The translations under genes were made by a program, and so were the position numbers. A stretch of DNA of 64,000 nt from Candidatus Heimdallarchaeota archaeon (GTDB lineage Archaea; Asgardarchaeota; Heimdallarchaeia; Hodarchaeales; Hodarchaeaceae), in contig RDOB01000003.1 in assembly GCA_011364965.1 (NCBI GenBank), positions 304,939 through 368,938 of the forward strand, read 5' to 3'. This document shows positions 22,892 through 35,839 of this stretch, piece by piece (within the stretch, counting starts at the first letter, position 1; every line of letters begins with the position of its first letter). Below the pieces are notes generated by a model. That model made no database searches and had not been told where the DNA came from. It was given only the letters and a program-made list of their open reading frames with translations.

Positions 22892-23335
22892 ATGATTTTT
22901 ACATATAATTTAACGGTGAAATATTTGCCTTTTTGGATTTACATGCTTTTAGTTGGACCAAAAACTCAAGGATACAATCGAAGAATATACACAGGTTATA
23001 CCAAATATTTAAGTTCACGGATACTTCAACATTCAGGCATCAGCTCAATTAAAGGAGCAAAAATGACACGAAAGCAACCAATAGAATTTGTTTATGCAGA
23101 GAGTTACCCTACCCAAAAAAAGGCAATGCAAAGAGAAAAACAATTAAAACATATACACCCATATAATAAAAAAGACTACAAACTTAAATTAATAATGCAA
23201 TTCCAAGAAAACAATGATGAGTTTATTAGAAGTATTAATGACAAATTAATTGAGTATTTTAAATTTCAAAAAGATTTTATTCAAGATTTGAAAAATTTAG
23301 AGAGTATTCTCTCTGTCCATCTAGATAATGTTTAG
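22892..23335 (+). CDS. GIY-YIG nuclease (Slx1/YhbQ-like) with coiled C-terminal tail
   Basis: WIYML...YTGYT..L..RI.QH...GAK.TR...AMQREKQLK. Confidence 0.85.
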   Translation: MIFTYNLTVKYLPFWIYMLLVGPKTQGYNRRIYTGYTKYLSSRILQHSGISSIKGAKMTRKQPIEFVYAESYPTQKKAMQREKQLKHIHPYNKKDYKLKLIMQFQENNDEFIRSINDKLIEYFKFQKDFIQDLKNLESILSVHLDNV

Positions 23336-25453: not shown

Positions 25454-26164
25454 ATGCAAATAATTACGCCATCTTTACTTAGATCGTACCTGGAGTGCCC
25501 ACGATTTTATTATTTATCGCATATCATGAAATTTAGTTTGGCTCCAAACAAAGAACACTTGGAAGACTCTCAGCTTGCTTTTCAAGTGAATGAACTGCTC
25601 ATCCGAAATTTATCCTTCATAATGGGCATGAATTTTAACAATCCCAATCATTTATTTGACACTGAGATCATGGAGAATCTAACTCAAAAAATTTGTCAAG
25701 CTTTTAGGTTTTTTATCAAGCACTTAACTCATAATCAGAATTTTAGTGAGCGAATTCAATATGCATTTAATAAAATGATCCAAGCCTCTGATAAATTATA
25801 TCAAGGGAGACCATCTGTATTAATTTTCTCTTCTGTTAACTCAGTAGCAATTTTTATACATACTTATAGGAATGAGTACCCTCAGTCCAGAAATTTTGGA
25901 TTCACTCAAGCTTTGATGTATGCTTATATTTTAAAATCTCACAATTATAACCCAGTTGAGTTTATTTATGTAAATTACAAGACTGGTAATTTAATTCATA
26001 AAGAAATCCAAGAAAAACACTTTAGAGAATTAGAAAAGACAACTGAAAGATTTATTCGAAATCTAGAGGAAGAGAAATTCTTACCAATTTATCATTCGCC
26101 ATGTCTATATTGTGAATTTCAAATACTTTGCGAACAAGGAGAGATATTTTATGGATTTGTTTGA
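25454..26164 (+). CDS. Cas4/AddB-like PD-(D/E)XK fold protein with 4Fe-4S cysteines and a degenerate active site
   Basis: TPSLLRSYLECPR; QALMY (QxxxY); C-terminal CLYCEFQILC; GRPS and FIHTY where G..D and DYK are expected. Confidence 0.7.
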   Translation: MQIITPSLLRSYLECPRFYYLSHIMKFSLAPNKEHLEDSQLAFQVNELLIRNLSFIMGMNFNNPNHLFDTEIMENLTQKICQAFRFFIKHLTHNQNFSERIQYAFNKMIQASDKLYQGRPSVLIFSSVNSVAIFIHTYRNEYPQSRNFGFTQALMYAYILKSHNYNPVEFIYVNYKTGNLIHKEIQEKHFRELEKTTERFIRNLEEEKFLPIYHSPCLYCEFQILCEQGEIFYGFV

Positions 26165-27041
26165 TATTATATACATGGGATTTGTTGATTTCTTAAGTTG
26201 GTACTCCCAAGAAGCCCTGAACGGGGTAAATCTCATCGAGTTCTTTTCTAAGCAGTTTATGATCTATATTCTACTTCAAATTGTTATGTACTTTTTACCT
26301 TTTATCAGAAAGTTCTTGAATGTGATTTGTTTACCTTTCCGCTGGATTCATGTCTATTTGCACGTGTATGAAGCAAAATTAATAATAGAAGAACTCCAAA
26401 AACAAAGAGAAAGTGGTGAAGAGGATGATTCAGGATTTGATCTAGATTCAGGGCAAATTCGTTCGAGTTTAATTTCTGGCCTTGACGTCTCTGATGAAAA
26501 TCCAGGTTTATTAATGGCTTTTAATCAATTAAAACATGCTCAACGTGTTGCCCTTGCGCCGAATAAGTTCGCGATCTTTATGCTAATCAGTTATATCATC
26601 CTTGCTCCCCTCGCTTTTGCCACAGGTGAGGTCTTTACTACCCAAATCGGGTCTTTAGTACATTTATACTTTTTTTTGGGAATTTTTGGAATCATGATGC
26701 CGTCGATGAATGACTGGTACTTTATATTTCATTCATTTCTAATCTCCTCTTTAAACATTAGACCTATTTGGATCTACTTTTCTCTAATTGTTTATATATG
26801 CTTTACAATTGAATTATTTTGGCGAACAGGTAATTTATTCATCGCTATCTTTGTAAGTACGTTTATATTTCTCTTCTACTTGTTTGGAATAGTAATATCT
26901 CATTATTTAGCAGTATCGGGGAAGCTTGGCTCTAAACTTAAGGATACGAAAATATTTTTCATCCCATATACCTCTCAGAAAAATTTTTCTACTGAAGAAA
27001 CTGATATCGAATTTTTAGCGTTAGAGGATCTCGAAATATAA
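26112..27041 (+). CDS. Polytopic membrane protein, distant zinc-metalloprotease-like (HxxxH); start probably ATG 26151
   Basis: Multiple TMs; WIHVYLH, VALAP and SMND resemble HExxH/LAP/SxxD of M50-like membrane proteases, but without the catalytic Glu. Confidence 0.5.
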   Translation: MNFKYFANKERYFMDLFDIIYMGFVDFLSWYSQEALNGVNLIEFFSKQFMIYILLQIVMYFLPFIRKFLNVICLPFRWIHVYLHVYEAKLIIEELQKQRESGEEDDSGFDLDSGQIRSSLISGLDVSDENPGLLMAFNQLKHAQRVALAPNKFAIFMLISYIILAPLAFATGEVFTTQIGSLVHLYFFLGIFGIMMPSMNDWYFIFHSFLISSLNIRPIWIYFSLIVYICFTIELFWRTGNLFIAIFVSTFIFLFYLFGIVISHYLAVSGKLGSKLKDTKIFFIPYTSQKNFSTEETDIEFLALEDLEI

Positions 27042-27059: not shown

Positions 27060-27761
27060 TTAATCAAATAATCTAAAGGAATCCTGTCCAAGAGATTGCT
27101 CAAAAAATCTAAGATTGAGTATATGAGAGGAGTTAGTTTTCGAGATTATAAATTCAATTGGCACAAAAGGAGTAATTAAATGCTTACCTGATTGATTCAA
27201 GGGAATAAAAGATGCAGTATCACTTTCAGATGAAATAAAGTTATTTGTCATCATAATCGGGATATGCTTTGATCTCGCTAAAGATTTGAGACTCAATAAG
27301 AAATCGAAAATTTTTCCTTCCCAAATTTTATTCTTTTTATAAAAATACTCAAAAGCATCAACTGGAGCACCAAAAATAGAGTCTATAATGATAAAGTCGA
27401 ATTTTGTATTTAATTCGTTAAAAAAGATCATCAGTTCCAGTAGGGACTTAGGATTGAATAAAGAAATTTGAGCTAGTAAGGATTGGTTTGAAATGGATTT
27501 TTCCAGGACATTTTTTCTTAGGTGACCTTCAAGATTACAATAGAGAACATGAGATTCAGGGAAGTGTTTAAAGAACAGCTTTACACTTCTCAGACAAAAA
27601 TTTGTTTTCCCAACGCCAGAATCTCCGATCACGCCATGGAGGAAACCTGGCAATAACCCGCCAATCGTATCATCAATAATGGAGATGTTTAAAGGTATTG
27701 AATTTTGTTTATTCCATAAATTAATGATATCAGAGACTGAAGTTACTTTTAATGAACTCAA
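27060..27761 (-). CDS. RecA/RadA-family paralogue (RadB/Rad51-paralogue-like, no N-terminal HhH domain)
   Basis: IDDTIGGLLPG, Walker A GDSGVGKT, VLYCNLEG, Walker B FIIIDS, LARSKHIPIMMTN. Confidence 0.8.
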   Translation of the reverse strand: MSSLKVTSVSDIINLWNKQNSIPLNISIIDDTIGGLLPGFLHGVIGDSGVGKTNFCLRSVKLFFKHFPESHVLYCNLEGHLRKNVLEKSISNQSLLAQISLFNPKSLLELMIFFNELNTKFDFIIIDSIFGAPVDAFEYFYKKNKIWEGKIFDFLLSLKSLARSKHIPIMMTNNFISSESDTASFIPLNQSGKHLITPFVPIEFIISKTNSSHILNLRFFEQSLGQDSFRLFD

Positions 27762-28198
27762 ATGAAATTATCCCCCACTCTAATATTTTTACACATCATT
27801 TCTGAAAATAGTTTTTCATCAGTTATGATAAATATGTTCATGCCTTTAGCTAATTCAGTTATCCCTACATGTTCTTCAGGTAGAATTCTATGGAATTTGG
27901 GAATATGAATGATAAGTGTTTGAAATCCTTGATCTTTTAATAAAAATAATTCAGACACATTGAAAATTTTGCTGAATGTATATAAATCGGGGATCTCTAG
28001 AAAGTATAGTTTTGATAATATTTCAGGTAAATCCTTTAAACACGTTAAAATATAGTATATTGGGATTTCTTGAAACTCAATCCATAATATAGGAGAACGA
28101 ATAAGTGGTAATAACTCTGAGGATAGAATTTTCATTATTGCGTCATTATATCCCCCGATAATAGAGATTAGCTCATTAGTGGCATAAACTGGTGTCAT
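27758..28198 (-). CDS. Minimal degenerate RecA-fold protein lacking Walker A
   Basis: Segments collinear with the RecA core: ELISIIGG, PILWIE, ILSKLYFLEI, FQTLIIH, ELAKGMNIFIITD; stop overlaps the start of the RecA paralogue. Confidence 0.5.
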   Translation of the reverse strand: MTPVYATNELISIIGGYNDAIMKILSSELLPLIRSPILWIEFQEIPIYYILTCLKDLPEILSKLYFLEIPDLYTFSKIFNVSELFLLKDQGFQTLIIHIPKFHRILPEEHVGITELAKGMNIFIITDEKLFSEMMCKNIRVGDNFI

Positions 28199-28203
28199 AA
28201 AAC

Positions 28204-29256
28204 TTAATCTCCTATGATCTCTGGTTGATCAATTAATTTGTCACCTTTAGCAGCTAATGATTCTTGATATACAAGATAGAATGGAATTCCAAGGAGAAAG
28301 ATGAACATAATTGGAAACATAATCCACTCAGGGATAGGATGATTGCCTAAAATAACTAGGGGGTGGGAAGTAGGTAATAATCTATTAAATACAGAAAATT
28401 CTATCGTAATTAGGATTTCACCTTGGTCAATGTTATAGCTAGGATTTACTATTACATCAAGTTCTAGAACCCCTTCAGCAGGAATACCACCAGAAAAACT
28501 TAGGTTGGCTATATTTCCATTGGAAACAAAATGATTTTCGTTATATATTCTAATATAATCTATATTACTCCCCTTAACCGCAATTCGAGCTATTCCATCA
28601 ATAGAGATATCATTTTGAGGTTTAATAAATACTAAGGTGCTAATCAAGAGCGGTTTCCCAAACAAACCAAAAGAGACCTTATGAATAAGGTAATGACGAG
28701 AAATCGATAAAGGAGATAGTTCAAAAGTCTCTTTTAACTGAGTAGAATTTAATCCAATTATCTCAGATTGAAGAATAGTAAAATCAACATCGGGTTGTCT
28801 CCATGAAATACTATGCTCTAAAATTATGCTAATATTAAGTAAAAATGAATCTGAGATTAGAGATGAATTTAACTTTATTATAAGTGATTGAGGGATATCA
28901 AACTGATAATTTAGTGCTTTTATCAACCCAATTTCCTGGTAAGTAGCAAAAACAGTTCTTTGGGTCGCACCATTCATTTCAGTAGAGATAATGACGCTTT
29001 CTATGGACTCACCATGATTCTGAACAGTCAAATTCAATAATAAATGATTCCACTTCTGATTCATAATACAATATCTTGAAAATGTGGATTTAATTTCTGT
29101 TAAGCGAGTATTTAGTCCAATGTTAACGTACTCGCATTTTAAATCTTTATTAATCAAAGAAGGTGGTAATGAATTGGTTTTGCTGATAACAAGATCATTA
29201 GTGTATAGAAATAGAAGTAAACTAACTATAATAAGGTGGTTTATTGATTGACGCAT
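28204..29256 (-). CDS. Secreted, C-terminally membrane-anchored beta-rich protein
   Basis: N-terminal signal; C-terminal TM WIMFPIMFIFLLGIPFYLV. Confidence 0.65.
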   Translation of the reverse strand: MRQSINHLIIVSLLLFLYTNDLVISKTNSLPPSLINKDLKCEYVNIGLNTRLTEIKSTFSRYCIMNQKWNHLLLNLTVQNHGESIESVIISTEMNGATQRTVFATYQEIGLIKALNYQFDIPQSLIIKLNSSLISDSFLLNISIILEHSISWRQPDVDFTILQSEIIGLNSTQLKETFELSPLSISRHYLIHKVSFGLFGKPLLISTLVFIKPQNDISIDGIARIAVKGSNIDYIRIYNENHFVSNGNIANLSFSGGIPAEGVLELDVIVNPSYNIDQGEILITIEFSVFNRLLPTSHPLVILGNHPIPEWIMFPIMFIFLLGIPFYLVYQESLAAKGDKLIDQPEIIGD

Positions 29257-29855
29257 ATAAATCCTCCGATAATAGTTATTAATGGATTAAAATGATTTAT
29301 TACTAAGTTAGCAAAATTTATAGAAAATAAAAACCCACTGATTCTCACTATACAGGTATTGGCCTTGGAGTTATCGAATGATACATTTGCAAATCGTAAA
29401 ACACGTACTTTATTCGATTTTGGCCATGTATAATGTTTCACAGGATGATTAGAATAAATTGCTGTCCTACCAAGAGGAATCCCATCGGAATTGAAAGCAT
29501 CCAAAATTAAATGAGAAGTCCAGCTTAATATGAGCCCAGTTACTAGAGAATACCAAAGAGAATCGGAAAGATAATCAGCCAATGTGATTAATGGAAAAAA
29601 ATAAGAGAAAGTCCATGGAGAATGAGTTAAAGGATGACGATATCTTCTAGCAAACCGATGTTTAGCTAATTGAACCCCCTGATATTGTGCTGATGTGTTT
29701 GGAATGATATCTAGGATATTCGGGAGTATACTCGCTCCAGCAATAAATAATGAGCTGATAAATATAAACCATGAAAGAATCGGGTCCTTCAGGGCTAATA
29801 AATCATAAAGATTAATAATCCCAAGAGCAAAACAGTAATGAGTCTGATTTTTCAC
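29241..29855 (-). CDS. YdjM-like membrane metal-dependent hydrolase
   Basis: QTH, LPNILD, RHPLTHS and SHLILDAFN..GIPL match the YdjM/DUF457 pattern. Confidence 0.8.
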   Translation of the reverse strand: MKNQTHYCFALGIINLYDLLALKDPILSWFIFISSLFIAGASILPNILDIIPNTSAQYQGVQLAKHRFARRYRHPLTHSPWTFSYFFPLITLADYLSDSLWYSLVTGLILSWTSHLILDAFNSDGIPLGRTAIYSNHPVKHYTWPKSNKVRVLRFANVSFDNSKANTCIVRISGFLFSINFANLVINHFNPLITIIGGFICVNQ

Positions 29856-29857
29856 TC

Positions 29858-32800
29858 CTACGACCTCCGTTTCTTATTAATTCTATTTCCAATTGCCACT
29901 AAGCTAGCAAATATGCTTCCTCCTAATCCTAGCTCTGCTAGTAAATTTGGATGATCAATTGACTCAGGTACCGAACTACTACTAGTAGAGATCGGGGAAG
30001 AATCTAAAGATGTACTTTCACTTTGATCAATGGTTACAGTTAATGCAGGCAGACTATATGTTTGCTGTTGACCTATATCATCAAATGCAACAATTTGTAG
30101 ATCATAAGTTCCTTCTTCTAACCAAAATTCAAAGGTATAGTGGGTAATATTATGAAATAAGGGATTAAGGGCAAGATCAGATATATAGAGAGTCACAGAA
30201 AAAATCTGAAAATCATCCTTGATTGGTATTTCAATTCTATAAAGAGCGCGTCCTGAAGCTATTTTTATGAGGGAAATAGTATGACTCCCGAAAATTGGAG
30301 GACTGTCTGTTGAGTTAAATACTAGGAATGTAGCGCTTGTAGCACCATAAATGTCGGTTGCATTTATAATAATAGTCCATACCGAATGATCAAGATTAGT
30401 AACTAAAAAACGCCAATTTTGAAAACTACCACTAATACTTTCATATAAAAGATCACCTTGAACTTCTTGTTGCAAGGAACCATTGGAAATCGCGAGTACA
30501 ACTGAATCTATTGAAGCATTCTGCTTTTCGACCCGTATTTCTAGTACAAAGTTGTCTCGGGTTGTAGAGAAAGATTCGACGGATATTATTGGAGTATACC
30601 ACTTGGATTGGTAATTTATGCAGGTAGAAGGTGTTTGATCCCAAGGATACCAAACAGAAAAATTAAAACTGTAATTTTGTGGATTAATTGGTAAAATAGT
30701 GACCCACCGGTTCCAAAATGCTTCATAAGATAGATCAACGGACGATGTCAGAAATGCTAGTTTGACATATTCAATTGGTAATGAGTTATCATCTACTTTC
30801 ACCCAAATTTCATAGTGATCATTTGCCCAATTCACATAGACTTCCTCAATTTTTGGGGGAGGAGGGAACCAGTTTAGTACAAATATCTCGAAGTCATATT
30901 CATCAAAAATTGTCTTGGCAATTAAACGCGCATTCCAAATTCCTGGTGAAGATAAAGAGAAATCTAAGGCATAAAATTTGTTAAAAGCATCCCATTCTAA
31001 GTCTTCCGTTCTCGAACCGTTAATCTCTAGCCAGAGTCTTTCAAAATTAGGATTGGGTAAAATTTGAGTTGTAAGATAAAAATTTCCTGCATTATCCAAA
31101 GATTGCATATTTGATTCAATTAGTAAATCAACTTTAGCTACAATCGCAAATTCGAGTGTTGCATGTTCTACATTTCCTGCTTCGTCATAAGCATAAACTG
31201 ATAATAGATATTCTCCTATTGACAAATTTAAGAAAAAAGGAGTTAAATACGTTTGGTTAAACATGTGAACACCAGTAATGCTATAAAGGATAGTACTACC
31301 ATCGGAATAAATATTAAGTAAGATTCCATCATGAAAAATTGAATGATATGGCGATTCTATGATTAAATTTGGAGGAATAGTATCTACACTAAAAAATGCC
31401 CTTTTTATAATGAAATTTCCAGCTAAATCGCTGCAAATTATTGTCAAGTTATGATGACCTTCATTAATATCATATAGATATTGATCTGAAACGGGATTAG
31501 GTAGCTCATTACCATCAAAAAATGCTCGTATTATGTCAGCATCAGTAAAAAATGTTATTTTTATGTCATTAGATGTGTAAGAGCTGTTCTGAGGATTGTT
31601 AAGATATAAAGAAGGAGCAGTAGTATCAACCTGAAATTCTGAAATAGCTGAACTAATTATTCCATATTCATTTTCGGCGAAAGCATTACATATGTAATTT
31701 CCTTGAGGTAAACTCCTATAAATAGGAGCTGTCCATGTTATATTTGAAACATCGACAGGTATTATGTGATACCAAAAATTTATAGCATCTCCCATTAACA
31801 TTACCTCCACAATAGAACCATATGTAATGTTCATGGGAGAAACAATCCTCAGATCCACTGGAATAGAGGTTATTTGAACTAAATCCTCCTCGCTTTTGGA
31901 TTCTAGATAATAATTCGTATCATCCAATGGAGTATGAACCATTATGCTGTATACCCCGGGTGTAGTCATCGCTAAGGTAAAATAATAGTGACCAGCTCCA
32001 TCGGTCGAATCTGCTTCTATTTCAGTTCCATTCACTTGTAAATATATATCAAGACCTTCAATGGGACCTGATACTTCTCCTATCACAGTTCCATCTATAT
32101 TTATGCTTACATTAACCTGAACTGAACTAGGAACAGAAAGTGTAATAATAACATCCTCATAAGCTTGAATGGCCAAATTTATTTGTTTGAAATAAACGTA
32201 CAAATCTTCCGAGACAATGCGAAAGGATTTAGATCCTCTAGTTGTAAAAATGTACTCATAGAGATGAATCCCACCTTCTCTCCAATCTTGCCATAACTGA
32301 TCAGCAATCCATATTTGATATCTTTCACTTGAATTTATAGCAAATGCATAGATTTCATTTACGTTAGCAGTACTATTACCAATAAAATCAATAATTGGAA
32401 TCACAAACATTGTAGAAAAATCATATTTAGTAGTATTTGGGCCTATCGCTCTTATACTGAAATCTCCCTTATAATATGGAGTACTCCAGTTATATAATCC
32501 CTGTCCTGATCCATTTAGTAATACAGAGGTTATATAATTCCAACTTGCACTCCCAAATGGTTGCCAATGAAGATCTATTATGTCATTTAATCCACCTTCT
32601 AAGGTTATCAATGTGAAACTTCTTGCTATAACTTCAGAGGGTATCATAATAGACAGGGGTGGCCTAACTGAGATACTTATAATTGGAGAATTAATAGCTG
32701 GTTTATAAAAGGAACTTAGATCTCCCTGAAACGATATTTCTATTAAATGAACGCCAATCTGAGTTGAGTGAGAGATATAGTAATCAAGATGAAAAAAACC

Positions 32801-34642
32801 CGATGAATCAGTAGAACAAATTCCGAGATCTATTCCAATTGTGTTATCTGTAATCATAATTGACTGATACTGGACAGGATGTCCTTCTTCGTCAGCTAAT
32901 TCTCCGTAGAAACGCACAGTTTGTCCTTTGATGAGAGTTGAAGCGTTTTGACCTACTATTGGGAAGGTGGGTGAAGAAAAAATTGTTAATTCAAAGGACT
33001 CAAGGTGTTCATCATAGTAATTAGAGTCATGAAATCGAATCTGGAAATTCATCACACCTAAGGGGTGGCTGGATTTTATGTGGTACTCGAAAAAAATGCC
33101 TGGTGTGTAGATTTTATTTTCAATTACAGTTGAATTAATGGCATATTCAAAGGATACTTCTCCACTGCTGACTGGATTCCCTTCAGAGAGAACAATTACT
33201 TCTATGACCGTATTACAATTACGATCAAGAGGTCCGCTTTCATAGGTAATATCAATCTCAGTTAATCCTTTGATAAGGATATCAATTGATGAAAGTGTAT
33301 CAATGATCCCACTTGGGGAACCGAATGACCTAAAACCATAACGATGTGTTCCAATGGATGAATTGTATAGAATTGAATATTCAAAAAAGAGAAATCCATC
33401 TTGGTTAGTACTTTTATTACTAATGGATCTATTTCCATCAGTTAAATCTATCAGTTCTAGAGTACATAACACTGGATGAGTCCAAACATCCTCTTCAGTA
33501 CAATAAACCTCAAATCGAATAGTTTCATTATTTTTAAATTCGGTTGCATTGACTGTAGAAGTAATTCGTGCCTTATCAGTGATCATCAAAAACTGTGTTG
33601 AATTCGCATAAATATCTGATGTCGATATGGCTTTTAGTTCTGTAATAATTACAAGAGGACCAACAGGAATAGATGAATTTGGTGAAAACGTAGATGAGGT
33701 ATTCCTTTTAGTTAATATCTCCTGATAGAATACTATCTTCTCACTACCAATAAAATAGTAACTCTCCAATTGCATTCCTATCGGAGAATCACCTAATATC
33801 GTATTTTGAAGGATTAAAGTATCCTGACATCGTTCAAGTTGAAGGGAACTTGAAGTCTGAACCAACCATACTCCTAGACTCATTACCGTAACATTGTGTA
33901 AAGAAGACTGAGATGGCTTTATATCACCAATAGATGTACCAGTATATTCAACAAGAAAATAATTTAATCCAACTGGAGTGAAAATGGGAACCTGATAATT
34001 GAATGTAAAAGGCCAGATTATTTGGGCACCACCTGAAAAATAATTTGGCAATGGCCCAATTGTGTGAATAGTGGGGATTCCCGTTAAATTCAAAGCTTTT
34101 ATATAGATATATCCTCCTCCCATCCACCCAAAATCGATAGTGAGTTCACCTGAAAATTCTAATGTAGCTTTCTTGAAAACAACACTCGAGTTCGTCCCTA
34201 GTGTAATCCATGAATCGCGAACTACTCCAGTGAAAAAGTTATCAAAGAATACAATACAAAATCCTGTTGAAGGGGAATAATTCAGGAATCCTTCATAATT
34301 AATTTGAAATATATGCTTTCCAAGAAGGAGCGGATCGGAAACAACCCATTCAATTTGTGCAAATCCGTTTATGATATTACCAATCATTACCTCAGAAGTA
34401 TTTGTGTCTGTTATGGTGAAAGATCCTGCTGGAACTGGATCATAACCAGTATATACCCAAATCGAAAAAAGAATTTTGTCTCCAGCTTGTTTAGTGCCTG
34501 AGTCAGCATGAATACTTGATATTGTATCTATAGAAACGGCTGAAACATTAATATTTGACATAGCAGTAAAAATTAACAGAAAAACGAAAAATAGTAACAC
34601 TGCTCGAATTCGAATCAGAGAATTATACAAGAAACCCTGCAA
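29858..34642 (-). CDS. Large (1594 aa) cell-surface protein with tandem Ig-like domains and C-terminal TM
   Basis: Signal peptide; repeated T.TD..G.F and DT.AP.L.I.SP Ig/Big-like units; Ser-rich linker, TM, KKRRS. Confidence 0.8.
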   Translation of the reverse strand: MQGFLYNSLIRIRAVLLFFVFLLIFTAMSNINVSAVSIDTISSIHADSGTKQAGDKILFSIWVYTGYDPVPAGSFTITDTNTSEVMIGNIINGFAQIEWVVSDPLLLGKHIFQINYEGFLNYSPSTGFCIVFFDNFFTGVVRDSWITLGTNSSVVFKKATLEFSGELTIDFGWMGGGYIYIKALNLTGIPTIHTIGPLPNYFSGGAQIIWPFTFNYQVPIFTPVGLNYFLVEYTGTSIGDIKPSQSSLHNVTVMSLGVWLVQTSSSLQLERCQDTLILQNTILGDSPIGMQLESYYFIGSEKIVFYQEILTKRNTSSTFSPNSSIPVGPLVIITELKAISTSDIYANSTQFLMITDKARITSTVNATEFKNNETIRFEVYCTEEDVWTHPVLCTLELIDLTDGNRSISNKSTNQDGFLFFEYSILYNSSIGTHRYGFRSFGSPSGIIDTLSSIDILIKGLTEIDITYESGPLDRNCNTVIEVIVLSEGNPVSSGEVSFEYAINSTVIENKIYTPGIFFEYHIKSSHPLGVMNFQIRFHDSNYYDEHLESFELTIFSSPTFPIVGQNASTLIKGQTVRFYGELADEEGHPVQYQSIMITDNTIGIDLGICSTDSSGFFHLDYYISHSTQIGVHLIEISFQGDLSSFYKPAINSPIISISVRPPLSIMIPSEVIARSFTLITLEGGLNDIIDLHWQPFGSASWNYITSVLLNGSGQGLYNWSTPYYKGDFSIRAIGPNTTKYDFSTMFVIPIIDFIGNSTANVNEIYAFAINSSERYQIWIADQLWQDWREGGIHLYEYIFTTRGSKSFRIVSEDLYVYFKQINLAIQAYEDVIITLSVPSSVQVNVSINIDGTVIGEVSGPIEGLDIYLQVNGTEIEADSTDGAGHYYFTLAMTTPGVYSIMVHTPLDDTNYYLESKSEEDLVQITSIPVDLRIVSPMNITYGSIVEVMLMGDAINFWYHIIPVDVSNITWTAPIYRSLPQGNYICNAFAENEYGIISSAISEFQVDTTAPSLYLNNPQNSSYTSNDIKITFFTDADIIRAFFDGNELPNPVSDQYLYDINEGHHNLTIICSDLAGNFIIKRAFFSVDTIPPNLIIESPYHSIFHDGILLNIYSDGSTILYSITGVHMFNQTYLTPFFLNLSIGEYLLSVYAYDEAGNVEHATLEFAIVAKVDLLIESNMQSLDNAGNFYLTTQILPNPNFERLWLEINGSRTEDLEWDAFNKFYALDFSLSSPGIWNARLIAKTIFDEYDFEIFVLNWFPPPPKIEEVYVNWANDHYEIWVKVDDNSLPIEYVKLAFLTSSVDLSYEAFWNRWVTILPINPQNYSFNFSVWYPWDQTPSTCINYQSKWYTPIISVESFSTTRDNFVLEIRVEKQNASIDSVVLAISNGSLQQEVQGDLLYESISGSFQNWRFLVTNLDHSVWTIIINATDIYGATSATFLVFNSTDSPPIFGSHTISLIKIASGRALYRIEIPIKDDFQIFSVTLYISDLALNPLFHNITHYTFEFWLEEGTYDLQIVAFDDIGQQQTYSLPALTVTIDQSESTSLDSSPISTSSSSVPESIDHPNLLAELGLGGSIFASLVAIGNRINKKRRS

Positions 34643-34831: not shown

Positions 34832-35839
34832 ATGGCAAAAGCACAAGATAAAAAAGAAGAAATGGTTGTAGAAAAAGAAATTCAACCAAAAAAAGATAAA
34901 AATCTAAGTTCAGAGAAATCTTTCCTTGAATCGATTTCTGGAATCGGACCAACTACCAAGAAAAGACTTGAAGAAGCAGGATATGGTAGTAAAGAAGCAA
35001 TTGCTTTAGCAACACGAGCTCAATTAACAGAAATCTCAGGAATCGCGGAAAAAACGGCAAGTATCCTAATAAGTGAAGCTAGAGCGAGATTTGACCTCGG
35101 TTTAAAGAAGGGAACTGAGTTTGAAACAGCAGCAAGATCCAGGCAAAAATTAACTACTAGTTCGAAAGTTTTTGATGAATTATTGGCTGGTGGTTTTGAA
35201 ACAGGGAGCATTACAGAGATCGCAGGGGAAAATGGTTGTGGAAAAACCCAAATTGCCCATCAAATGGCTGTAAATTGCATTAAGTATTTTGATCGCGATG
35301 TTATCTGGATCGATACCGAAGGAACTTTTAGATTTAATCGTATTGTCCAAGTAGCTCAAGCAATGGATCTCGATCCTGATTCAGTATTATCTCGGATCAC
35401 AGTAGGAAGAGCATACAACAGTGAACATCAGATGGCATTAACTGAAGAAGCTATTACGACTGTTCCCAATGTAGGTTTAATAATCGTTGACTCTCTAATG
35501 GCACATTTTCGATCAGAATTTGCAGGGCGAGCTACACTCGCAGAACGACAGCAATTGATAGGGAAACACTTATCTTTCATTGCAAAACAAACCGAGATGT
35601 TAAACTGTGTAGGACTGGTAACCAACCAAGTTTCAGCTAAACCAGATGCTTTATTCTTCGGAGATCCAAATAAACCGGTTGGAGGAAACGTTGTGGGACA
35701 CACAGTAACTACTCGTTTAATGATTAGGAAAGGCAAAGACATCAAGAGGACAGCTACTTTAACGAAGAATCCTGAACTTCCTGATGGCAAAATCGAATTT
35801 GCAATAACTAGCGAAGGAGTAAGAGATTTCAAAAAATAG
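34832..35839 (+). CDS. radA: DNA repair and recombination protein RadA
   Basis: N-terminal HhH (SGIGPTTKKRLEEAGY); GENGCGKT; IDTEGTF; LIIVDS; LAERQQ; TNQV; GGNVVGH. Confidence 0.9.
   Translation: MAKAQDKKEEMVVEKEIQPKKDKNLSSEKSFLESISGIGPTTKKRLEEAGYGSKEAIALATRAQLTEISGIAEKTASILISEARARFDLGLKKGTEFETAARSRQKLTTSSKVFDELLAGGFETGSITEIAGENGCGKTQIAHQMAVNCIKYFDRDVIWIDTEGTFRFNRIVQVAQAMDLDPDSVLSRITVGRAYNSEHQMALTEEAITTVPNVGLIIVDSLMAHFRSEFAGRATLAERQQLIGKHLSFIAKQTEMLNCVGLVTNQVSAKPDALFFGDPNKPVGGNVVGHTVTTRLMIRKGKDIKRTATLTKNPELPDGKIEFAITSEGVRDFKK

What the first reader, a model, noticed from the sequence alone, without database searches (positions are those of the whole stretch)
27060..28198. Coupled pair of an ATPase-motif RecA paralogue and a Walker-less mini-RecA, resembling eukaryotic Rad51-paralogue heterodimers
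Seen: the 233-aa protein has Walker A and B but no N-terminal domain. The overlapping 146-aa protein keeps RecA-core strand order but lacks GKT and the Walker B Asp. Known: eukaryotic Rad55-Rad57 and the Shu subunits Psy3-Csm2 are heterodimers of divergent RecA folds that mediate Rad51 loading; bacterial ImuA and SulA are also degenerate RecA folds. Inference: a RadA mediator heterodimer in an Asgard lineage, relevant to the origin of Rad51 paralogues.
Basis: inference. Interest (0 to 1): 0.7.

Follow-up and report, generated by a model that had tools for sequence, protein, structure and literature searches.

The report
Archaeal RadB-like ATPase with dead RecA partner
One genus of Hodarchaeota (Asgard archaea) carries two overlapping genes, a small RadA/RadB-like ATP-binding protein and a previously unclassified protein predicted to be a stripped-down RecA fold with no ATP site. 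The two are predicted to pair the way neighbouring subunits do in a Rad51 filament, so they resemble eukaryotic Rad51-paralogue dimers but most likely arose independently.

Summary
Two minus-strand genes overlap by 4 nt (TTGA): a 233-aa protein (27060-27761) and a 146-aa protein (27758-28198).

**The 233-aa protein** is an NTD-less Rad51/RadA-fold core.
- VIA Z is 23.6 to Dmc1/Rad51/RadA, and the family profile hits S. solfataricus RadA at E 6e-12.
- Its nearest outside relatives are RadB-like proteins (hhalign 98.7%).
- Walker A and Walker B are invariant across the family.

**The 146-aa protein** matches no family by sequence; an exhaustive HMMER search of 1.8 billion proteins found only its own 17 clusters. 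Its model (pLDDT 87) is a truncated RecA core. The best matches are XRCC3/RAD51C, UvsX, FlaH and DMC1 (Z 9.5-10.1). It has no P-loop and no Walker B Asp.

**Predicted pairing.** The complex scores ipSAE 0.80 against 0.00 for the best control. The 233-aa N-terminal strand aligns with RadA's FxxA polymerisation motif and docks on the edge strand of the 146-aa protein.

**Distribution.** The pair occurs only in one Hodarchaeota genus (17-18 of 22 genomes; 0 of 61 others in the class). It is cleanly absent from three genomes and broken in one.

**Reading.** A RadB/Rad55-Rad57-like filament-end mediator is the best explanation, but RadA binding was not tested. A direct link to the origin of eukaryotic paralogues is unlikely. 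The scan holds notes only on this same stretch, none on other DNA.

The parts
27060..27761 (-). Gene for the 233-aa NTD-less RadB/RadA-like RecA-core ATPase (TTG start, SD-like GGGGGA 9 nt upstream)
   Evidence: ORF. The A2 profile hits RadA 2bke at E 5.9e-12. RadB TIGR02237 matches 16 of 16 members, all far below the cut-off. VIA Z 23.6 to Dmc1/Rad51/RadA. AF2 pLDDT 85.9.
27758..28198 (-). Gene for the 146-aa orphan protein, predicted to be a truncated RecA core without nucleotide-binding motifs
   Evidence: ORF. No sequence family found. Only 17 family clusters in the exhaustive HMMER search. AF2 pLDDT 87.3. Fold matches.
27758..27761 (-). TTGA overlap between the stop of the 146-aa gene and the start of the 233-aa gene (translational coupling)
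   Evidence: Sequence. Overlap or a gap of 3 nt or less in 13 of 13 related loci.
27714..27752 (-). Residues 4-16 of the 233-aa protein: polymerisation-motif-like strand (V6-T-S-V9) plus helix, predicted to dock on the 146-aa protein
   Evidence: Contacts 1:4-9, 12-13 and 16 with 2:64-68 and 2:45-51. hhalign puts T7-S8-V9 opposite I-S-A of RadA's FISA motif. Hydrophobic h-x-x-h pattern kept in the family.
27603..27626 (-). Walker A GDSGVGKT (residues 46-53)
   Evidence: G46, G49, G51 and K52 invariant in 16 sequences.
27381..27395 (-). Walker B strand FIIID (residues 123-127)
   Evidence: D127 invariant.
27528..27530 (-). Glu78 at the position of the catalytic Glu of RadA's DTEG motif. Present here and in L001 but replaced by S/N/C/R/K/Q in the other members.
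   Evidence: Alignments.
27995..28009 (-). 146-aa residues 64-68 (LYFLE, F66 invariant): edge strand predicted to receive the partner's N-terminal strand. It is equivalent to the RadA/Rad51 strand that receives FxxA.
   Evidence: Lowest-error contacts 1:7-9 with 2:64-66. Collinear hhalign register with the 233-aa ISLFN strand, which in turn aligns with RadA IYYIR.
28148..28156 (-). 146-aa G15-G16-Y17: remnant at the P-loop position (no GK[ST]). G15 and Y17 are invariant, and Y17 lies in the predicted interface.
27905..27919 (-). 146-aa residues 94-98 (TLIIH): strand equivalent to Walker B, with His in place of Asp
28204..34642 (-). Context: the three upstream genes of the same tightly packed operon. 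These are a 1594-aa Ig-like surface protein (29858-34642), a 204-aa YdjM-like membrane protein (29241-29855) and a 350-aa anchored protein (28204-29256).
   Evidence: Gene order kept in 13 of 13 loci. The three genes persist without the pair in G003, G011 and G018.
34832..35839 (+). Context: divergently transcribed full-length RadA paralogue (HhH + Rad51 domain, Walker A GENGCGKT, LKKG at the FxxA position)
   Evidence: Adjacent in most loci, whether or not the pair is present.

Best explanation
The two genes encode a constitutive heterodimer of two RecA folds, built like two neighbouring subunits of a Rad51/RadA filament. The 233-aa subunit is a RadB-like core that still binds ATP. Its first ~16 residues stand where RadA has its FxxA polymerisation motif and helix. 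The 146-aa subunit is a cut-down RecA core whose former nucleotide pocket is filled by invariant aromatic and proline residues. It accepts the partner's N-terminal strand on its edge strand, but it has no such strand of its own, so it ends the chain. The ATP face and acceptor groove of the 233-aa subunit stay free. The dimer therefore most likely docks on a RadA protomer or a RadA filament end as a mediator or cap, as proposed for RadB, Rad55-Rad57 and RAD51D-XRCC2. Hydrolysis is probably weak or dispensable, because the catalytic Glu and the gamma-phosphate-sensing Gln are not conserved in the family. Shown by computation: the gene pair, its conservation and co-inheritance, the two folds, the motifs and the predicted interface. 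Inferred only: any contact with RadA or DNA, and any role in recombination.
For: Folds:
- The 233-aa model reaches VIA Z 23.6 to Dmc1/Rad51/RadA, with Foldseek TM 0.77.
- The A2 profile hits RadA at E 5.9e-12, and hhalign to RadB-like proteins gives 98.7%, E 3e-16.
- The 146-aa model's top structural hits are Rad51 paralogues, UvsX, FlaH, DMC1 and RecA at Z 9.4-10.1, above the tool's typical background of 7-8. Psy3-Csm2 scores 8.4 and SulA 7.7.

Pairing:
- ipSAE is 0.80, 0.81 and 0.80 in three runs, against 0.00 for the best of three controls. The runs share at least 87% of contacts and partner pLDDT is at least 79. The mark was reached by 58 of 80 solved complexes and 2 of 110 mismatched pairs; these counts hold only roughly here because my own alignments were used.
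- The interface has Rad51-filament geometry. The 233-aa residues 4-9 pair with the 146-aa strand 64-68.
- hhalign independently aligns the 233-aa residues 7-9 with the I-S-A of RadA's FISA motif.
- Interface residues of the 146-aa protein are more conserved than the rest of it (entropy 1.57 against 2.00, permutation p 0.009). They include Y17, P46, F66 and P100.

Co-inheritance:
- The genes are adjacent and overlapping in 13 of 13 loci.
- Both are absent from G003, G011 and G018.
- Both carry stop codons in G017.

Mechanistic precedent: NTD-less RadB, Rad55 and XRCC2 are proposed to cap filament ends (PMC7618403). RadB binds RadA and acts as a mediator (PMC5480776).

Context: a RadA paralogue, XPD, GIY-YIG, Cas4-like and Hef-like genes lie nearby.
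Against: - No test of RadA or DNA binding was possible.
- The pair sits at the 3' end of an operon headed by a giant Ig-like surface protein and two membrane proteins, not with radA on the same strand.
- The nearby repair genes keep their places in genomes that lack the pair, so that neighbourhood reflects genus-wide synteny and not a specific link.
- The L1 arginines of RadA are missing, the L2 region is short and variable, and the pI of both families ranges from acidic to basic, so no DNA-binding signature stands out.
- The interface residues of the 233-aa protein are not more conserved than the rest of it.
- The complex score may partly reflect the model's memory of solved Rad51-type interfaces.
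- The 146-aa protein shows no significant sequence similarity to any RecA family (hhalign 1.3-1.5%).
Confidence: 0.5

Rival explanations
1. The heterodimer is the cytoplasmic ATPase or regulator of the surface-protein module it is co-transcribed with (giant Ig-like protein, YdjM-like membrane protein, anchored 350-aa protein). It would work like ArlH/FlaH or KaiC-type RecA-fold regulators of archaeal surface structures, and have nothing to do with recombination.
For: - Five genes are packed with a 2-nt gap, a 16-nt overlap, a 5-nt gap and a 4-nt overlap on one strand, and this order is kept in 13 of 13 loci.
- FlaH is among the best structural matches of the 146-aa model (Z 9.8 and 9.5).
- ArlH, FlaH and KaiC models hit 5-12 of the 16 family members weakly.
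- The 350-aa protein has a conserved cytoplasmic tail after its C-terminal membrane helix.
Against: - The surface module is intact and conserved without the pair in G003, G011 and G018, so it does not need the pair.
- RadB and RadA are far better matches than ArlH or KaiC: RadB hits 16 of 16 members with best E 7e-16, against ArlH best 2e-5.
- The N-terminus aligns with RadA's polymerisation motif, and the structural Z of 23.6 is to recombinases.
Confidence: 0.2
2. The 146-aa protein did not descend from a RecA-family gene. It is a generic three-layer alpha/beta adaptor that converged on a similar topology and merely regulates or stabilises the RadB-like ATPase.
For: - No sequence-level link exists to any RecA family: Pfam, NCBIfam, PHROGs, PADLOC and the PDB find nothing, and hhalign against its partner and against RadA gives 1.3-1.5%.
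- Z of about 10 is only 2-3 units above the tool's stated background.
- P-loop NTPases of other classes (CobA, PilT, clamp loader) also appear at Z 7.5-9.
Against: - The top ten structural matches are all RecA-superfamily, and most are Rad51-family.
- 143 of 146 residues align.
- The only hhalign alignment to the partner is collinear, strand for strand, with the RecA core; the Walker B strand lies opposite TLIIH.
- Its ILWID strand is picked out opposite RadA's VIYID strand.
- The predicted interface is the canonical filament one.
Confidence: 0.12
3. The pair is a dispensable, slowly decaying duplicate with no current function.
For: The pair is absent from three or four genomes of the genus and broken in G017. 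It is restricted to one genus.
Against: - Intact ORFs are kept in at least 15 species that have diverged to 22-59% identity.
- ATP-binding motifs and interface residues are invariant.
- The gene overlap is conserved.
- Both proteins give confident fold predictions.
Confidence: 0.05

Closest known systems
Archaeal RadB (NCBIfam TIGR02237; P. furiosus / T. kodakarensis RadB, PDB 2cvf)
   Same: A RecA core of about 220-240 aa without the HhH N-terminal domain, with Walker A and B. It is the best-matching curated family for all 16 members. The nearest outside relatives are RadB-like proteins. RadB is proposed to cap or mediate RadA filaments.
   Different: - Scores are 33 bits for the window protein, against a cut-off of 172.
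- The DTEG Glu and the TNQ Gln are not conserved.
- It occurs in Asgard archaea, whereas RadB is described as restricted to Euryarchaeota (PMC5480776).
- It has an obligate small partner gene, which RadB lacks.
Yeast Rad55-Rad57 and human RAD51D-XRCC2 (within BCDX2 / CX3-DX2)
   Same: A heteromer of divergent RecA folds joined through the filament-type interface. The terminal subunit lacks the N-terminal domain and cannot recruit a further protomer (PMC7618403). RAD51C/D and XRCC3 are among the best structural matches of both models.
   Different: Rad55 and XRCC2 keep a P-loop, whereas the 146-aa protein has none and is much shorter. No orthology is indicated, because the pair is limited to one Hodarchaeota genus. 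RadA contact is untested.
Shu complex core Psy3-Csm2 (PDB 3vu9)
   Same: Rad51-paralogue-like RecA folds that have lost their ATPase motifs and act as structural subunits. The 146-aa model matches 3vu9_B at Z 8.4 over 129 residues.
   Different: In Psy3-Csm2 both subunits are ATPase-dead. Here one subunit keeps invariant Walker A and B motifs. There is no detectable sequence relationship.
ArlH/FlaH and single-domain archaeal KaiC-like ATPases
   Same: Small RecA-superfamily ATPases without extra domains. FlaH matches the 146-aa model at Z 9.5-9.8. The pair's operon encodes surface and membrane proteins.
   Different: Sequence matches are much weaker than to RadB or RadA. No archaellum genes are nearby, and the N-terminal polymerisation-motif-like strand is a Rad51/RadA feature.

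Membership tests
RadB (NCBIfam TIGR02237, equivalog) | Whole-protein score at or above the curated cut-off (172.4 bits) | tested here: not met
   32.6 bits, E 7.1e-8 for the window protein. All 16 members match but stay far below the cut-off, best E 6.9e-16.
RadB (NCBIfam TIGR02237, equivalog) | RecA core only, no HhH N-terminal domain, with Walker A and B | tested here: met
   233 aa. The structural alignment begins at residues 6-8. GxxGxGK[TS] and D127 are invariant.
RadB (NCBIfam TIGR02237, equivalog) | Catalytic Glu of DTEG and Gln of TNQ, as in the RadB-like outgroup | tested here: not met
   The outgroup A4 has DTEGG and TNQV. In family A2 the Glu position is E only in the window protein and L001, and the Gln position is H/N/Y.
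RadB (NCBIfam TIGR02237, equivalog) | Physical interaction with RadA | not tested
It needs a pull-down or a further multimer prediction.
Rad51/RadA recombinases (Pfam PF08423) | Score at or above the gathering threshold (22 bits) | tested here: not met
   11.3 bits, E 0.21. The genome's five true RadA paralogues score 237-308 bits.
Rad51/RadA recombinases (Pfam PF08423) | Rad51-type ATPase-core fold | tested here: met
   VIA Z 23.6, rmsd 3.1, 220 residues aligned to yeast Dmc1. RadA 2fpm gives Z 22.9.
Rad51/RadA recombinases (Pfam PF08423) | HhH N-terminal domain and L1/L2 DNA-binding loops with conserved Arg | tested here: not met
   No N-terminal domain. The L1 segment reads FGAPVDAF without the Arg residues of RadA's HFRAEYxGRG. 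The L2 region is short, variable and of low pLDDT.
Rad51-paralogue heteromers (Rad55-Rad57, RAD51D-XRCC2, Psy3-Csm2) | Two different RecA-fold subunits joined by the filament-type (polymerisation-motif) interface | tested here: met
   This rests on prediction only. The interface scores ipSAE 0.80 against 0.00 for the best control, with the N-terminal strand on the partner's edge strand. The pass may partly reflect likeness to solved complexes.
Rad51-paralogue heteromers (Rad55-Rad57, RAD51D-XRCC2, Psy3-Csm2) | Common descent with the eukaryotic paralogues | tested here: inconclusive
   No tree with eukaryotic sequences could be built. The distribution is one genus: 0 of 61 other genomes of the class. 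PDB profile hits show no preference for the paralogues: RadA 6e-12, RAD51D 8e-9, RadB 3e-6, Rad55 6e-5. This argues against common descent but does not exclude it.
Rad51-paralogue heteromers (Rad55-Rad57, RAD51D-XRCC2, Psy3-Csm2) | Stimulates or caps recombinase filaments | not testable with these tools
   Needs biochemistry.
KaiC / ArlH (FlaH) RecA-superfamily ATPases | Match to the family models above their cut-offs | tested here: not met
   KaiC_arch_4 gives E 0.011 (15 bits against a cut-off of 248) for the window protein. ArlH hits 7 of 16 members, best E 2.2e-5. Pfam KaiC (PF06745) was not reported at E up to 1.
SulA / ImuA-type degenerate RecA folds (for the 146-aa protein) | Structural or sequence match specific to these families | tested here: inconclusive
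   SulA 1ofu gives Z 7.7 over 108 residues, below the Rad51-family matches at Z 9.4-10.1. There is no sequence match.

The most novel reading that the evidence does not exclude
The pair is a surviving archaeal representative of the same ancestral two-subunit cap that gave rise to Rad55-Rad57 and XRCC3/RAD51D-XRCC2. On this reading it was lost from all other sampled Asgard lineages, and heteromeric Rad51-paralogue mediators predate eukaryotes. A weaker but still novel version is that Hodarchaeota independently built a full eukaryote-like recombinase toolkit: 3-5 RadA paralogues, two RadB-like cores and a dead cap subunit.
Probability: 0.05. Interest if true: 0.9.

Novelty: new variant of a known kind. 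Interest (0 to 1): 0.55.

Why it matters
Recombination mediators made of divergent or dead RecA folds (Rad55-Rad57, BCDX2/CX3, the Shu complex) are regarded as a eukaryotic elaboration. In archaea only single-subunit paralogues (RadB, aRadC/Ral) are described, and RadB is described as confined to Euryarchaeota.

This locus predicts a two-subunit version in Hodarchaeota, the Asgard group often placed closest to eukaryotes. One subunit binds ATP and the other is a nucleotide-free chain terminator. The genomes that carry it also hold 3-5 full-length RadA paralogues.

Even if the pair arose independently, it gives a small, tractable system of 146 + 233 aa. With it one can test how a dead RecA fold caps an oligomer and how filament-end mediators evolve. 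It also defines a new orphan protein family with a predicted fold and partner.

Tried and rejected
- **Sequence searches for the 146-aa protein.** Pfam, NCBIfam, PHROGs, PADLOC and PDB searches (single sequence and 16-sequence profile) found nothing. The word-indexed search found only the protein itself. The exhaustive HMMER profile search found 17 clusters, all members of the family, 78-153 aa long, so there is no fused form or distant relative.
- **Profile-profile comparison.** A1 against its partner family (A2) and against the genome's RadA paralogues (A5) was not significant: 1.3% and 1.5%.
- **Split-gene or frameshift idea** (one RadA-like gene with a novel N-terminal domain). Rejected: no fused homologue exists, and both frames are kept separately in all genomes.
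- **Phage or defence origin.** Only generic RecA-like hits appeared (UvsX, Sak4, DnaB, mad8), all weak.
- **The search for related loci with the full A2 alignment** failed because no conserved stretch was available. The 6-sequence A3 run returned only two family loci plus unrelated P-loop proteins.
- **RadA-giant protein fusion.** An apparent 1964-aa fusion ORF in G008 is an artefact of a run of N between two genes.
- **Repair-gene neighbourhood as evidence of function.** Downgraded, because the same neighbours stay in place where the pair is absent.
Full report
**Observation**

The window holds two minus-strand ORFs exactly as described: a 233-aa protein at 27060-27761 and a 146-aa protein at 27758-28198. 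The TGA stop of the upstream 146-aa gene overlaps the TTG start of the downstream gene as TTGA, with an SD-like GGGGGA 9 nt before the TTG. The N-terminus given by the TTG start aligns with the N-termini of all orthologues, so this start is the likely one.

**The 233-aa protein**

- Single-sequence searches give only weak hits: AAA_24 (E 1e-5), RadB TIGR02237 (E 7e-8, 33 bits against a cut-off of 172) and Rad51 (E 0.21).
- A 16-sequence family profile (A2) hits S. solfataricus RadA at E 5.9e-12 over nearly the whole core. Next come RAD51D, Dmc1, RAD51B and RadB.
- All 16 members match the RadB model; 10-11 match RadA models; KaiC and ArlH matches are much weaker.
- The AF2 model (pLDDT 85.9) superposes on Dmc1/Rad51/RadA with VIA Z 22-23.6 and Foldseek TM 0.77. 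The alignment starts at model residues 6-8, opposite RAD51 residues 89-92.
- The closest relatives outside the family are 241-243-aa proteins, one of which a source names RadB. hhalign gives 98.7%, E 3e-16 to these, against 95.9%, E 5e-9 to the genome's own RadA paralogues.
- Walker A (G46, G49, G51, K52) and the Walker B Asp127 are invariant.
- The Glu of RadA's DTEG motif is kept only in the window protein (E78) and its closest relative. The Gln of TNQ is H/N/Y, and the L1 arginines are missing.

I read this as ATP binding retained, with hydrolysis and recombinase-type DNA binding doubtful.

**The 146-aa protein**

No sequence method places it in any family. An exhaustive HMMER search of 1.84 billion representative proteins with the family profile returned only 17 clusters. 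All had E below 1e-18 and lengths of 78-153 aa, so they are the family itself, with no fused forms.

The AF2 model is confident (pLDDT 87.3, pTM 0.83): six beta-alpha units with residues 1-9 disordered. Foldseek's significant hits are all RecA-superfamily (RAD51C/D, RecA, KaiC, DnaB C-terminal domain, RadA; best E 4.6e-4). The Foldseek-independent VIA search ranks as follows:

| Match | Z |
|---|---|
| XRCC3/RAD51C | 10.1 and 10.0 (142-143 of 146 residues, rmsd 3.4-3.5) |
| UvsX | 9.9 |
| FlaH | 9.8 |
| DMC1 | 9.7 |
| RecA | 9.4 |
| RadB | 8.6 |
| Psy3-Csm2 | 8.4 |
| SulA | 7.7 |

This is 2-3 Z units above the tool's stated background, so the RecA-like fold is well supported as a prediction. 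Descent from a RecA gene is not proven. hhalign against the partner family is not significant (1.3%), but its only alignment is collinear strand for strand. It places His98 opposite the Walker B Asp. The P-loop position reads G15-G16-Y17, with G15 and Y17 invariant.

**The pair as a unit**

Searching the order found the 146-aa family in 18 of 22 genomes of one GTDB genus and in none of two genomes of the neighbouring family. The 233-aa family is in 17 of those 22 and in 0 of 61 other genomes of the class. Record titles of two member contigs read 'Candidatus Hodarchaeota archaeon', and the genome encodes an Asgard-type actin at 443 bits.

In 13 of 13 extended loci the two genes are adjacent, ranging from a 3-nt gap to a 29-nt overlap. 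Both are missing from G003, G011 and G018 (the last 99% complete), where the locus is contiguous. Both carry internal stops in G017. They are therefore inherited, lost and decayed together.

**Predicted complex**

- With both alignments, the complex scores ipSAE 0.80, 0.81 and 0.80, against 0.00 for the best of three controls.
- The runs share at least 87% of contacts, and partner pLDDT is at least 79.
- The mark was reached by 58 of 80 solved complexes and 2 of 110 mismatched pairs. These counts hold only roughly, because my own alignments were used.
- The lowest-error contacts join residues 7-9 of the 233-aa protein to strand 64-66 of the 146-aa protein.
- Further contacts involve the 233-aa helix 148-164 and residues 198-201 and 220. 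On the 146-aa side they involve Y17, residues 42-51, P100 and F102.

Independently, hhalign aligns the 233-aa T7-S8-V9 with the I-S-A of RadA's FISA motif, so V6 stands at the Phe position. The receiving strand (LYFLE) corresponds through the alignments to RadA's IYYIR and Rad51's AYARA strand. That strand receives FxxA, as I recall from the Rad51-BRC4 and RadA structures and as described in PMC5480776 and PMC7618403.

The prediction thus reproduces a filament-type interface. The 146-aa protein offers its degenerate nucleotide face, and the 233-aa protein offers the strand and the trans side. Interface residues of the 146-aa protein are more conserved than its other residues (permutation p 0.009); those of the 233-aa protein are not. 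One caveat applies: such interfaces are in the PDB, so part of the score may be recall.

**Mechanism**

The 146-aa protein has no N-terminal strand or helix of its own, so it cannot recruit a further subunit. The P-loop face and acceptor strand of the 233-aa protein are not used in the dimer. By analogy with the capping model for NTD-less RadB, Rad55 and XRCC2 (PMC7618403) and the RadB-RadA interaction (PMC5480776), the simplest reading is that a RadA protomer's FxxA docks on the 233-aa protein. The dimer would then terminate or nucleate a RadA filament end. None of this was tested here.

**Context and the main rival**

The pair ends a five-gene, tightly packed operon: a 1594-aa Ig-like surface protein, a YdjM-like membrane protein, a 350-aa anchored protein, then the 146-aa and 233-aa genes. 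This order holds in 13 of 13 loci. A full-length RadA paralogue is transcribed divergently from it. XPD, Hef-like, GIY-YIG and Cas4-like genes lie nearby.

In the three genomes that lack the pair, both the surface module and the RadA/XPD neighbours remain. So neither neighbourhood is specifically tied to the pair. Co-transcription with surface proteins keeps an ArlH/KaiC-like role alive (about 0.2). The much stronger RadB/RadA affinity and the polymerisation-motif-like N-terminus favour a recombination role (about 0.5).

**Comparison and novelty**

The pair fails the curated RadB and Rad51 thresholds. It lacks conserved catalytic residues, lies outside Euryarchaeota, and has an obligate dead partner, so it is not a RadB or RadA member. 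It works most like Rad55-Rad57 or RAD51D-XRCC2, or like a half-dead Shu-type dimer.

The literature held here describes Asgard RadA duplications, but that study set RadB-like sequences aside (PMC12722695). I found no report of an archaeal two-subunit RecA-fold mediator. The narrow distribution makes an independent origin much more likely than ancestry of the eukaryotic paralogues. I rate it a new variant of a known kind, with interest 0.55.

Noticed in passing
G000 loci L020-L024 (one at window 34832-35839 +): The genome carries five distinct full-length RadA/Rad51-family paralogues (33-70% identity). Three are canonical, with FxxA and DTEG. Two are divergent: the window copy has Walker A GENGCGKT and LKKG at the FxxA position, and the L024 copy has PITA and DTEN. 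Genomes of the genus hold 3-5 such genes each.
   Followed up: partly
L030:1462-2076 (+) = G000:C12:286597-287208: A second NTD-less RadB-like paralogue of 204 aa with a degenerate Walker A (GLPGTYKT). It is related to the 233-aa family (hhalign 95%, E 3e-8) and present in 19 of 21 genomes of the genus, including those that lack the pair. It has no coupled small partner gene.
   Followed up: partly
window 28204-34642 (-): A conserved three-gene module: a 1594-aa Ig-like surface protein with a C-terminal membrane anchor, a YdjM/DUF1286-like membrane protein, and a 350-aa anchored protein with a conserved cytoplasmic tail. It is kept in all 16 loci examined, with or without the RecA-fold pair.
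   Followed up: partly
L012 (G017:C49:7742-11134): In genome G017 both genes of the pair carry in-frame stops (146-aa: TAG and TAA; 233-aa: two TGA). This suggests joint pseudogenisation, or else sequencing errors.
   Followed up: no
L039:16400-17764 (-) (G008:C1): An apparent 1964-aa ORF fusing a RadA paralogue to the giant surface protein is caused by a run of N (about 34 X residues) between two co-oriented genes. It is a scaffold gap, not a fusion.
   Followed up: yes
window 25454-26164 (+) and 22892-23335 (+): A stand-alone Cas4-like PD-(D/E)XK protein (PADLOC Cas4 E 5e-11, C-terminal part only) lies near a GIY-YIG protein, with no CRISPR genes seen nearby. The Cas4-like gene is lost with the pair in G011 but kept in G003.
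   Followed up: no
window 26112-27041 (+): A 309-aa multi-pass membrane protein with no family match is convergent with the pair, 18 nt from its end. It is missing at this site in G003 and G011, which also lack the pair, and lies elsewhere in the G018 locus. It is also not adjacent in some genomes that do have the pair.
   Followed up: partly
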